Shown one piece after another: positions 60,001 to 63,000 of a stretch of 64,000 bases of DNA. How positions within the stretch are numbered: the stretch's first letter is position 1; each line of letters begins with the position of its first letter. Position numbers: made by a program. Source of the stretch: Escherichia coli (GTDB lineage: Bacteria; Pseudomonadota; Gammaproteobacteria; Enterobacterales; Enterobacteriaceae); NCBI RefSeq assembly GCF_041248615.1, contig NZ_CP158426.1. One strand, given 5' to 3'.

Positions 60001-63000
60001 GATACGCTGGAAAATTGCGATGATGACCGTATTGAGGCTGTTAAGGCTGTTTTGCGTAGACTGGCTGGCAACTATCCGGTAACTCCGGATAGTTGGATAA
60101 GCTGTAGTGAGCGAATGCCCGCTCAAGATGATTGGATTTTAATTTATTCAAAGCACGGCGAGTATATGGCAGGACAGGTACAAGGGGAATACGTGGAGTT
60201 GAGCGACGGCACTTTATCGTGGTTAGGGAACGCCTTGTACTGGATGCCTCTACCAGAACCGCCGAAGGAGGTTAACCGTGGCTAACCTGCAACTTGCCGT
60301 CAAAGGTGAATACTTCGATGCCATGATTCGCGGAGAGAAAACGGAAGAGTATCGCCTGTGTAATGACTACTGGAAAAAGCGCCTCGTTAACCGTAAGCAT
60401 GACCGCCTGATTATCACAAAGGGATATCCGAAGCGCGACGATTCCAGCCGCAGAGTTGATGTTCCGTATGACGGATATGAAGTGAAGACAATCACACATC
60501 CGCACTTCGGTGATAAACCGGTAAAGGTATACGCGATAAAGGTAAATATCGGCACTGAATAACAATCCGCACAACACAAGGTCAAGAATGTTCAGAGTGA
60601 TTTACCCTAACACCTGGTACGTCGACCACCACGGCACTCCCTGCAAAATCCTGCGTTCCACTCACAACAAAGCTCACTACATCCGAAAAGGCAGAACATG
60701 TATCGCCAGCATGTTCCGCTTTAATCATGACTTTGAACCTGTGAATAAAGCTGACGCAGATCGGATAGCTGAAGAGATCGAAACAGCAGAACACATTAAG
60801 AAGTTACGTGCCATACGCAGGAAATAGAAAAATTGATAAATTCAATACTGCATTTCTCAGCATTAAATTTATCTCTATGACCAGTCAAGAGATGTACCTG
60901 CCATGAGCTTAATATCATGTCAGATATATCGGTCACAAACTCCCTCAGCAGCTAAGAGGAGGACAAATGTCTCGACTAATCACTTTACAGGACTGGGCTA
61001 AAGAAGAATTTGGGGACTTAGCACCAAGTGAGCGAGTTCTGAAAAAATACGCGCAAGGGAAAATGATGGCCCCACCCGCTATAAAAGTTGGTCGCTACTG
61101 GATGATTGACCGAAATTCCCGTTTTGTAGGAACGCTTGCAGAACCGCAACTCCCAATAAACGCAAACCCAAAACTCCAACGGATAATCGCTGATGGCTGC
61201 TAGACCCCGATCTCACAAAATCTCTATACCCAATTTATATTGCAAATTAGATAAGCGAACCGGAAAGGTATATTGGCAATACAAACATCCACTATCCGGT
61301 CGTTTTCATAGCTTAGGAACTGATGAGAATGAAGCAAAACAAGTTGCTACTGAAGCAAATACCATTATTGCTGAACAACGTACCCGACAAATATTAAGCG
61401 TCAATGAGCGTCTAGAAAGAATGAAAGGCAGGCGCTCAGACATTACGGTGACAGAATGGCTTGATAAATATATTTCTATCCAGGAGGACAGGCTGCAACA
61501 TAATGAACTAAGACCCAACTCCTATCGGCAAAAAGGCAAACCCATTCGTCTTTTCCGTGAGCATTGTGGAATGCAACACCTCAAGGATATTACCGCACTT
61601 GATATTGCCGAAATAATTGATGCTGTAAAGGCTGAAGGTCATAACAGGATGGCGCAAGTCGTGAGAATGGTGTTGATCGACGTCTTCAAAGAAGCACAAC
61701 ACGCAGGACATGTTCCGCCAGGATTTAACCCAGCGCAGGCAACAAAACAACCGCGAAATCGAGTAAACCGCCAAAGATTATCACTGCCCGAATGGCAGGC
61801 AATATTTGACAGCGTAAGCAGACGGCAGCCCTATTTAAAATGCGGGATGCTACTTGCTCTTGTCACTGGACAACGTTTAGGCGATATCTGCAATTTGAAA
61901 TTCTCTGATATCTGGGACGACATGTTGCACATTACTCAGGAAAAAACCGGTTCAAAACTTGCTATTCCGCTTAACCTGAAATGCGATGCTCTGAATATTA
62001 CCCTTCGTGAAGTTATATCTCAGTGCAGGGATGCTGTTGTTAGTAAATATCTGGTCCATTACCGTCACACTACCTCTCAAGCAAACAGAGGAGACCAGGT
62101 GTCTGCAAATACTCTTACAACGGCTTTTAAAAAGGCCAGGGAAAAATGTGGCATAAAATGGGAGCCAGGAACTGCGCCCACATTTCATGAGCAGCGATCT
62201 CTGTCAGAACGGTTATATCGGGAACAGGGTCTGGATACGCAAAAGTTGTTAGGTCATAAATCCAGAAAAATGACCGACCGATACAATGATGATCGTGGTA
62301 AAGACTGGATTATCGTAGATATCAAAACAGCATAGAAAATAGCCAGTTTTGGGGAAGGGTTTTGGGGAAAGTTTTGGGGAAGATTTTACATCATCATAAA
62401 ACAACGGGCGTGTTATACGCCCGTTACAATATTTAACACATGTAGTGATTACATATTCTTGATGATCGCATCACCAAACTCTGAACATTTCAGCAGCTTA
62501 GCGCCTTCCATCAGACGTTCGAAGTCATAGGTTACGGTCTTCGCATTGATTGCGCCTTCCATACCTTTAACAATCAGGTCTGCGGCTTCAGTCCAGCCCA
62601 TATGGCGCAGCATCATCTCAGCGGAGAGAATAATAGAGCCAGGGTTAACTTTGTCCTGACCGGCATATTTCGGCGCAGTACCGTGGGTGGCTTCAAACAG
62701 GGCGCATTCGTCACCGATGTTTGCGCCTGGGGCGATACCGATACCGCCGACCTGTGCAGCCAGAGCGTCAGAAATGTAGTCACCGTTCAGGTTCATACAG
62801 GCGATAACATCATATTCAGCCGGACGCAGCAGGATCTGTTGCAGGAATGCATCAGCAATCACATCTTTAATGACGATCTCTTTGCCGGTATTCGGGTTTT
62901 TAACTTTCAGCCACGGGCCGCCGTCGATCAGTTCACCGCCAAACTCTTCACGCGCCAGCTGGTAGCCCCAGTCTTTAAACGCGCCTTCGGTGAACTTCAT

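What the first reader, a model, noticed from the sequence alone, without database searches (positions are those of the whole stretch)
62346..62382. Tandem 12-bp repeats beside the att junction, with a related copy at the opposite prophage end
Three direct repeats of GTTTTGGGGAAR lie between int and icd, and TTTTGGGGAAAG recurs at 10945-10956 just inside the other boundary. Their placement on both arms fits arm-type integrase binding sites.
Basis: seen in the sequence. Interest (0 to 1): 0.35.

Follow-up and report, generated by a model that had tools for sequence, protein, structure and literature searches.

The report
Phage 21 attP arm-type integrase sites

Summary
GTTTTGGGGAAR occurs three times in tandem at 62346-62382, starting 11 bp after the int stop codon. 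ATTTTGGGGAAAG lies at 10944-10956, on the same strand. The 10-mer TTTTGGGGAA occurs only at these four places in the window, against 0.28 expected by chance.

The window holds a ~51.8 kb prophage inserted in icd, with junctions at 10825|10826 and 62612|62613. Its xis-int-att segment is 98.4% identical to phage 21. The phage 21 GenBank record annotates this same 37-bp stretch as attP subsites, consensus YYTTCCCCAAAA.

The integrase has a lambda-type arm-DNA-binding domain. Related elements keep the layout but change the repeat sequence on both arms together:
- e14 uses TTTTGATAAC.
- PPompW, which targets ompW, uses TTTTGCAGAG.
- Each has three copies spaced 13 then 11-12 bp on the int side.
- Each has one copy at +120/121 on the other arm, with an exact IHF consensus at +88/89.

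One correction: the crossover junction lies inside icd, 231-267 bp from the repeats.

Novelty: already known. Interest is low.

The parts
62346..62357 (+). int-side (P'-like) arm dodecamer 1, GTTTTGGGGAAG. It lies at -267..-256 from the junction.
   Evidence: Annotated as an attP subsite in phage 21 record OL657228.1.
62359..62370 (+). int-side arm dodecamer 2, GTTTTGGGGAAA
62371..62382 (+). int-side arm dodecamer 3, GTTTTGGGGAAG
10944..10956 (+). Single arm dodecamer on the opposite (P-like) arm, ATTTTGGGGAAAG, at +119..+131 from the junction. It has the same orientation as the triple.
   Evidence: Identical in phage 21. Invariant in P-arm variants that are 9-10% diverged. A copy of each element's own motif sits at +120 in e14 and +121 in PPompW.
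10913..10925 (-). Exact IHF consensus (AATCAAACGGTTG, matching WATCAANNNNTTR) at +88..+100. It is a candidate DNA-bending site between the junction and the P-arm dodecamer.
   Evidence: It is one of only 4 exact matches in the 64 kb window. Exact consensus matches sit at +88 in e14 and +89 in PPompW. It is one of only two conserved blocks in the three-way arm alignment.
62396..62612 (-). Phage-borne replacement 3' end of icd, comprising the last 55 codons (including the stop) plus the terminator hairpin. It forms the attR identity block, and the phage/host junction is at 62612|62613.
   Evidence: The alignment to the left copy shows 11 differences in 217 bp, and the junction-proximal 67 bp are identical. 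All free-phage genomes match the query only up to 62612.
10609..10825 (-). Displaced original 3' end of icd (an icdC-like pseudogene), forming the attL identity block. The junction is at 10825|10826.
   Evidence: RefSeq annotates the equivalent piece as an incomplete isocitrate dehydrogenase.
61193..62335 (+). int, a tyrosine integrase of 380 aa with an N-terminal arm-DNA-binding domain. It is 98.9% identical to phage 21 Int and 100% identical to phage ev017 Int.
60967..61203 (+). xis, an excisionase of 78 aa that overlaps the int start
   Evidence: (PF07825)
62449..63699 (-). icd, the host isocitrate dehydrogenase gene. It remains intact because its 3' end is supplied by the prophage.

Best explanation
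The repeats are the arm-type binding sites of the attachment site of a phage-21-type lambdoid prophage integrated in icd.

The proposed mechanism follows lambda. The integrase has two DNA-binding parts. Its N-terminal arm-binding domain (residues ~1-70) recognises the dodecamer (G/A)TTTTGGGGAAR. Its C-terminal domains bind and cut at the crossover site inside icd, at the end of the identity block near ...CCATATGGCGCAGCA.

Three contiguous sites sit just past the int stop codon and correspond to lambda P'1-P'3. One site in the same orientation sits about 120 bp on the other side of the crossover and corresponds to lambda P1. Integrase protomers would bridge arms and core while IHF bends the DNA at the consensus site at +88..+100. 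This folded complex makes integration and excision directional.

The int-side arm is unusually long (267 bp, against about 85 bp in lambda). The reason is that the phage must carry a 217-bp replacement for the icd 3' end between its core and its arm sites.

Related elements keep the first half of the dodecamer (TTTTG) and vary the second half. This variation probably sets which integrase acts on which element, so that phage 21 and e14 can share one attB without cross-excision.

Shown here: the sites, their statistics, their positions, the integrase domain, identity with phage 21 and its annotation, and concerted change of both arms in relatives. Inferred: binding by the N-terminal domain, IHF use, and the specificity role.
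For: 1. The exact motif occurs only at these four places in the window (4 found, 0.28 expected, 0 of 100 shuffles reached 4). It forms a period-12/13 array.

2. Int carries Arm-DNA-bind_1 (PF09003, residues 1-71, E=1.8e-28) plus the catalytic domain PF00589. The neighbouring gene is an excisionase.

3. The xis-int-att segment is 98.4% identical to phage 21 records M61865.1 and OL657228.1, and 100% identical to free phage ev017. OL657228.1 annotates the identical 37 bp as 'integration site attP consists of 3 subsites P1P2P3; consensus YYTTCCCCAAAA'. Phage 21 also has the fourth copy in the other arm.

4. Layout is conserved while sequence changes in concert.
- e14 has TTTTGATAAC x3, the first at -266 as in this window, plus a copy at +120.
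- PPompW_EH2246 (Int 51% identical, target ompW) has TTTTGCAGAG x3 directly after the int stop, plus TTTTGCAGGA at +121.
- Phage 813R8 and Providencia phage PSTCR8lys each have three TTTTGG-type copies after int.
- Spacing is 13 then 11-12 bp in all five elements.

5. An exact IHF consensus lies at +88 in the window and in e14, and at +89 in PPompW. Only 4 exact matches exist in the whole window. In the three-way arm alignment only the IHF block and TTTTG are conserved.

6. Conservation across genomes.
- The int-side arm is present in 1678 of 5426 complete E. coli genomes.
- The other arm is present in 1465 genomes. One class is 90-95% identical, and in the four diverged variants aligned most substitutions fall at about +12..+65 while the IHF site and dodecamer stay invariant.
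- A one-mismatch O157 variant has its change outside the repeats.

7. In lambda, three contiguous arm-type sites begin at the int stop codon (ATAATGATTT, ATTTTGACTG, ATAGTGACCT at L009 1929-1959). The core lies downstream and P1 has the same orientation on the far arm. The site names come from established knowledge (Ross & Landy 1982-83; Landy 1989).

8. The span from the first to the last dodecamer is 398 bp. This falls inside the 366-418 bp minimal attP that I recall from Wang et al. 1997, which I could not check.
Against: - No binding or recombination experiment can be run here, and the key paper (Wang et al. 1997, PMC179457) is not in the library.
- No inverted, P2-like copy was found in the far arm at up to 3 mismatches in 12 or up to 1 mismatch in an 8-mer core. 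The site set is therefore not a one-to-one copy of lambda's five sites.
- No far-arm copy was found in the Providencia phage.
- Excisionase sequences diverge in step with the integrases. Covariation alone cannot tell which of the two proteins reads the repeats.
- The int-side arm has no IHF consensus within one mismatch, so how a 230-bp spacer is folded is unexplained.
Confidence: 0.9

Rival explanations
1. The tandem repeats are binding sites for the excisionase (Xis) rather than for Int. Xis proteins of lambda-like phages bind closely spaced direct repeats and bend the DNA to favour excision.
For: - The repeats are closely spaced direct repeats, a pattern typical of excisionase sites.
- An Exc-family excisionase is encoded just upstream of int.
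- Xis sequences diverge in parallel with the repeat sequence in relatives (62% identity for the Providencia phage with the same motif, and 32-45% for elements with other motifs).
Against: - The same motif is present on both arms. By established knowledge, lambda-type Xis sites lie on one arm only, between an arm-type site and the core.
- The triple occupies the position of lambda P'1-P'3 next to the int stop.
- The phage 21 record annotates the repeats as attP subsites.
- From memory, integration in vitro, which needs no Xis, requires an attP that reaches the outermost dodecamers.
Confidence: 0.06
2. The repeats are a functionless product of replication slippage in non-coding DNA, and the copy at 10945 is a coincidence.
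For: The unit is short and G/T-rich, and the array is small. With one mismatch allowed, the motif is not over-represented in the window.
Against: - Exact copies are far above chance and confined to the att arms.
- The array is identical in phage 21 and in more than 1300 E. coli genomes.
- Positionally equivalent arrays with different sequence exist in e14, PPompW, 813R8 and a Providencia phage.
- The far-arm copy changes in concert with the array.
Confidence: 0.01
3. The repeats act mainly on gene expression. They could be an operator for a phage regulator or an RNA-level element at the 3' end of the int transcript, next to the icd terminator hairpin, controlling int mRNA stability in a sib-like manner.
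For: They lie 11 bp after the int stop and 14 bp before a strong hairpin (62401-62426) that the phage 21 record annotates as a terminator.
Against: - A purely 3'-UTR role does not explain the copy on the far arm at a conserved offset with a conserved IHF site.
- In e14 and 689R6 the int gene is separated from the att-side repeats by several kb of cargo, yet e14 keeps the repeats beside the att block and not beside int.
Confidence: 0.03

Closest known systems
Phage 21 attP (icd-specific lambdoid phage; GenBank M61865.1 and OL657228.1; Wang et al. 1997, J Bacteriol 179:5705)
   Same: The xis-int-att segment is 98.4% identical over 1713 bp. The 37-bp triple repeat and the far-arm copy are identical, and the insertion point in icd is the same. 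The phage 21 record annotates the same repeats as attP subsites.
   Different: The window holds a prophage of ~51.8 kb, whereas phage 21 is 42.9 kb. It carries extra cargo, including a sit-like Mn/Fe transporter operon and an IS256-family element. The carried icd 3' segment differs from that of phage 21 at 12 of 217 positions.
Cryptic prophage e14 of E. coli K-12 (same attB in icd)
   Same: The junction in icd is the same. Three tandem sites have their first TTTTG at -266, one site lies at +120, and an exact IHF consensus lies at +88. Spacing is 13 then 11 bp.
   Different: The motif is TTTTGATAAC instead of TTTTGGGGAA. The Int N-terminal domain is only 60% identical. In e14, int is separated from the sites by lit, ymfD and ymfE.
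Lambda attP arm-type sites P1, P2, P'1-P'3
   Same: Both use a heterobivalent integrase with the PF09003 arm-binding domain (34.8% identity to lambda Int). Both have three contiguous direct sites beside the int stop codon, and a site of the same orientation about 120-145 bp away on the other arm.
   Different: The motif differs: lambda uses (C/A)AGTCACTAT. No P2-like inverted site was detected here. The int-side arm is about three times longer because it contains the 217-bp icd replacement. Spacing is 12-13 bp, against 10-11 bp in lambda.
PPompW prophages of enterohaemorrhagic E. coli (inserted in ompW)
   Same: The layout is the same: three tandem sites directly after the int stop (spacing 13 then 11 bp), one site at +121, and an exact IHF consensus at +89.
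   Different: The target gene and motif differ (TTTTGCAGAG). The carried gene fragment is 121 bp, so the triple starts at about -157 rather than -266.

Membership tests
Arm-type Int binding sites of a lambda-family (heterobivalent) tyrosine integrase | The cognate integrase has an N-terminal arm-DNA-binding domain in addition to its core-binding and catalytic domains. | tested here: met
   PF09003 Arm-DNA-bind_1 covers residues 1-71 (E=1.8e-28, 98.8 bits against a cutoff of 22). PF00589 covers residues 200-367.
Arm-type Int binding sites of a lambda-family (heterobivalent) tyrosine integrase | A short repeated sequence, different from the crossover (core) sequence, is present on both arms of attP. 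| tested here: met
   Three copies lie at -267..-231 and one at +119..+131 from the junction. The motif is absent from the rest of the window.
Arm-type Int binding sites of a lambda-family (heterobivalent) tyrosine integrase | In relatives with diverged integrases, the sites keep their position while their sequence changes, and both arms change together. | tested here: met
   The motifs are TTTTGATAAC in e14, TTTTGCAGAG/TTTTGCAGGA in PPompW and TTTTGGGGAA in phage 21. The far-arm offsets are the same: +120 (window), +120 (e14) and +121 (PPompW).
Arm-type Int binding sites of a lambda-family (heterobivalent) tyrosine integrase | The Int N-terminal domain binds the sites directly, as shown by footprinting or EMSA. 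| not testable with these tools
   This needs protein-DNA experiments. The relevant paper (PMC179457) is not held.
Arm-type Int binding sites of a lambda-family (heterobivalent) tyrosine integrase | The sites are required for recombination, so that the minimal attP includes them. | not testable with these tools
   The measured span is 398 bp. This is consistent with the 366-418 bp minimal attP that I recall from Wang et al. 1997, which is memory and not verified here.
Phage 21-type icd-specific integration module | Near-identity of xis, int and attP to phage 21, with insertion in icd and a phage-supplied replacement for the gene's 3' end. | tested here: met
   Identity is 98.4% over 1713 bp and Int is 98.9% identical. 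The icd ORF is an intact 416 aa and a displaced 3' copy lies at 10609-10825.
Excisionase (Xis) binding sites | Direct repeats confined to one arm, lying between an arm-type site and the core. | tested here: not met
   The motif occurs on both arms and is the outermost element on each.
IHF binding site | A match to WATCAANNNNTTR. | tested here: not met
   The repeats themselves do not match the consensus within one mismatch. A separate exact IHF consensus lies at 10913-10925.

The most novel reading that the evidence does not exclude
The integrase clade that includes phage 21, e14 and PPompW may use a simpler arm-site set than lambda. It has three sites plus one, all in one orientation, with no inverted P2-type site, a fixed far-arm geometry (IHF site at +88, arm site at +120) and an int-side arm of freely variable length (157-267 bp). 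In this reading the variable second half of the dodecamer (GGGAA, ATAAC or CAGAG after a constant TTTTG) is a natural recognition code. That code would insulate elements that share one attB. If so, excision in this clade must be assembled differently from lambda's, and the series could be used to read out or re-engineer arm-domain specificity.
Probability: 0.25. Interest if true: 0.35.

Novelty: already known. Interest (0 to 1): 0.12.

Why it matters
The result matters little as a discovery. It re-identifies the arm sites of the classic phage 21 attachment site, which the phage's GenBank record already annotates and which the 1990s literature discusses.

It is useful for annotation. It fixes the prophage boundaries at 10826 and 62612. 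It shows that the integration module is intact. It also shows that about 30% of complete E. coli genomes carry this module at icd.

The family-wide comparison is a modest extension. It shows a constant TTTTG half and a variable second half in the dodecamer, a conserved offset for the IHF site and far-arm site, and an int-side arm of variable length. This could guide experiments on how arm-domain specificity keeps phages that share one attB from excising each other.

Tried and rejected
- **Primary papers not held.** Wang et al. 1997 was tried by DOI and by PMC179457, and Mehta et al. 2004 by PMC331406; neither is held. Full-text searches for 'dodecamers', attP and arm found nothing. The phage 21 genome announcement does not discuss att. 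The 1997 findings are therefore cited from memory only.
- **No second or inverted (P2-like) far-arm site.** None was found at up to 3 mismatches in 12, or at up to 1 mismatch in an 8-mer core. By eye, TTAGCCAAAA at about +68 resembles the reverse complement with 2 mismatches in 10. It has no counterpart in PPompW, so I did not count it.
- **No far-arm copy in Providencia phage PSTCR8lys.** The search found none.
I tried to separate them by covariation. Both proteins diverge in parallel, so the test is uninformative.
- **vB_EcoM-689R6.** Its Int N-terminal domain is e14-like, yet it has no TTTTG repeats after int. A DUF262 cargo gene follows int, so attP is presumably further downstream, and I dropped this element.
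- **icd copies compared with phage 21.** I considered that the displaced icd copy resembles phage 21's own copy more than the resident copy does. The counts (11 against 12 differences) do not support this.
- **Junction coordinate corrected.** My first junction coordinate (62613) was one base off, and I corrected it to 62612|62613.

Full report
**1. What is in the sequence**

The stretch 62346-62382 reads GTTTTGGGGAAG G GTTTTGGGGAAA GTTTTGGGGAAG. Tandem Repeats Finder reports a single array at 62345-62387, with period 13 and 3.4 copies. ATTTTGGGGAAAG lies at 10944-10956 on the same strand.

- The exact 10-mer TTTTGGGGAA occurs four times on both strands of the window, all at these sites. The expectation is 0.28, and none of 100 shuffles reached four.
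- The 8-mer TTGGGGAA is likewise confined to these four places.
- With one mismatch allowed the count is unremarkable (10 found against 6.3 expected).

Its strength lies in the exact copies and where they sit.

**2. Context**

The repeats start 11 bp after the stop codon of a 380-aa tyrosine integrase gene (61193-62335, + strand). A 78-aa excisionase gene (60967-61203) precedes and overlaps int. After the repeats comes the 3' end of icd (62449-63699, - strand, intact 416-aa ORF).

A 217-bp block at 62396-62612 recurs at 10609-10825. It contains the icd terminator hairpin and the last 55 codons, counting the stop. The two copies differ at 11 positions, and the 67 bp nearest the icd-internal end are identical.

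Free phage genomes match the int-att query only up to 62612. The phage/host junctions are therefore 62612|62613 and 10825|10826, and the prophage is about 51.8 kb. It supplies the resident icd 3' end, while the original 3' end is displaced to 10609-10825. This is the classic icd insertion.

The repeats abut the outer edge of the identity block. They lie at -267..-231 from the junction, and the single copy lies at +119..+131.

**3. Identity with phage 21**

The segment 60900-62612 is 98.4% identical to phage 21 (M61865.1 and OL657228.1) and 100% identical to free phage ev017. Int is 98.9% identical to phage 21 Int.

The complete phage 21 record OL657228.1 carries a feature on exactly the homologous 37 bp. 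It reads 'integration site attP consists of 3 subsites P1P2P3; consensus YYTTCCCCAAAA'. The phage 21 sequence has the same three repeats and the same fourth copy in the other arm.

PMC10111431 and PMC12803456 both refer to icd as the well-known phage 21/e14 attachment site, citing Wang et al. 1997. That paper is not held. From memory, it delimits the minimal phage 21 attP to 366-418 bp, with outer limits that include the outermost 'repeated dodecamers' proposed as arm recognition sites in a 1992 thesis. The first-to-last dodecamer span measured here is 398 bp, which fits.

**4. Independent support for arm-type sites**

(a) Integrase domain. Int has the lambda Arm DNA-binding domain (PF09003, residues 1-71, E=1.8e-28) and the catalytic domain PF00589. 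It is 34.8% identical to lambda Int and 39.5% to HK022 Int.

(b) Position in lambda. Lambda's three contiguous arm-type sites begin at its int stop codon (L009 1929-1959). The annotated core lies about 50 bp further on. P1 has the same orientation on the far arm, about 130-145 bp from the core. The site names come from established knowledge.

(c) Relatives keep the layout but not the sequence.

| Element | Int identity to the window's Int | Target | Motif of int-side triple (position of first TTTTG) | Far-arm copy |
|---|---|---|---|---|
| This window / phage 21 | 100% / 98.9% | icd | TTTTGGGGAA (-266) | TTTTGGGGAA at +120 |
| e14 (K-12) | 60% | icd | TTTTGATAAC (-266) | TTTTGATAAC at +120 |
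| PPompW_EH2246 | 51% | ompW | TTTTGCAGAG (directly after int stop) | TTTTGCAGGA at +121 |
| Phage 813R8 | 45% | not determined | TTTTGGGGAAA, TTTTGGAGAGA, TTTTGGAGAAA | not examined |
| Providencia phage PSTCR8lys | 69% (N-domain 77%) | not determined | TTTTGGGGAAG, TTTTGGTGGGG, TTTTGGGGAAG | none found |

Spacing within the triple is 13 then 11-12 bp in all five elements. Both arms change together within each element. This is the pattern expected if one protein reads both arms.

(d) IHF site. An exact IHF consensus lies on the - strand at +88..+100 in the window and in e14, and at +89..+101 in PPompW. Only four exact matches exist in the whole window. In a three-way alignment of these otherwise unalignable arms, the only conserved blocks are this IHF motif and TTTTG.

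(e) Conservation within E. coli.
- The int-side arm occurs in 1678 of 5426 complete genomes, with at least 99% identity in 1315.
- The far arm occurs in 1465 genomes and includes a class that is 90-95% identical.
- In the four diverged far-arm variants aligned, most substitutions fall at about +12..+65. The IHF site and the dodecamer are invariant.
- The O157 86-24 variant has one mismatch, and it lies outside the repeats.

**5. Mechanism**

The mechanism is inferred by analogy with lambda. Int protomers would bind the dodecamers through their N-terminal domains and the crossover site inside icd through their C-terminal domains. IHF would bend the far arm at +88..+100. The resulting folded complex would carry out integration, and excision with Xis.

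The int-side arm is long because the replacement icd 3' end lies between core and arm sites. In PPompW the carried gene fragment is 121 bp, and the triple starts correspondingly nearer, at about -157.

The variable second half of the dodecamer probably sets integrase specificity. From memory, the literature reports poor cross-excision between phage 21 and e14, which would be explained by this.

**6. Limits and rivals**

No binding data can be produced here. Further limits are:
- No P2-like inverted site was found.
- No far-arm copy was found in the Providencia phage.
- No IHF consensus lies in the int-side arm.

That rival is disfavoured for two reasons. The motif is on both arms and outermost on each, and the triple sits where lambda has P'1-P'3. 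Slippage without function is excluded by the comparative data. A purely int-3'-UTR role is contradicted by e14, where int is 3 kb away but the repeats stay beside the att block.

**7. Verdict**

The feature is the known arm-site set of the phage 21-type attP, so novelty is 'already known' and interest is low. The comparative layout across the 21/e14/PPompW clade is a small extension that may or may not be in print.

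Noticed in passing
window 12743-17143: A Mn/Fe ABC transporter operon (sitABCD-like) lies inside the prophage, about 2 kb from the attL junction. 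The ATPase matches NCBIfam PRK15056 at E=7e-179. The fourth gene, a permease, is only 183 aa. It is followed directly by an IS256-family transposase gene (15935-17143), which suggests truncation by the IS.
   Followed up: partly
L017 (E. coli O157:H7 TR01, NZ_CP033605.1) positions ~427-470, equivalent to window 62346-62395: This is a natural variant of the int-side arm. After GTTTTGGGG of the second repeat, the sequence switches to the native icd-downstream flank (TCGATATGCTATTAATAATATCCACATAAATAAAAC...). The third repeat is therefore missing. Such a prophage might be impaired for excision.
   Followed up: partly
L003 ~1500-1472 (e14 in K-12, read on the - strand): An inverted repeat CCCCAAAAC-TACCGA-GGGGTTTTG overlaps the first e14 arm repeat. 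Its left half is the reverse complement of the phage-21-type GTTTTGGGG. I cannot tell whether this is a relic of a specificity switch or chance.
   Followed up: no
L003 1868-4589 (e14) and L005 2131-2919 (phage vB_EcoM-689R6): In the e14-type elements, cargo genes sit between int and the att-side arm sites. The cargo is ymfD, ymfE, lit and the sRNA C0293 in e14, and a DUF262 gene in 689R6. In phage 21 and in this window, int abuts the sites. The int/att gap therefore looks like a cargo insertion hotspot.
   Followed up: partly
window 11286-12056 (- strand): A 256-aa ORF just inside the prophage has no NCBIfam match. It is also present in phage 21, where it is annotated as a hypothetical protein (CPT_21_31). 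The phage 21 record annotates CII-binding-site matches (TTGYN6TTGY) nearby, in the region equivalent to window ~11025-11075.
   Followed up: no
L009 1890-1959 (lambda NC_001416.1, 27785-27854): The RefSeq lambda feature 'int 4' (27814-27854) does not coincide with where the P'1-P'3 sequences are seen (27785-27815, starting at the int stop codon). The annotated coordinates appear to be shifted.
   Followed up: no
H31, NZ_CP135957.1 (E. coli MS1657): This genome is the best match to the window's int-att segment, at 100% identity in two pieces. In it the integrase gene is interrupted by an IS2 element, which is an example of a grounded copy of the same prophage.
   Followed up: no
window 10149-10158: A one-mismatch copy, TTTTGGGGAG, lies about 680 bp outside the prophage in host DNA. 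Given the background of one-mismatch hits, it is most likely chance.
   Followed up: no
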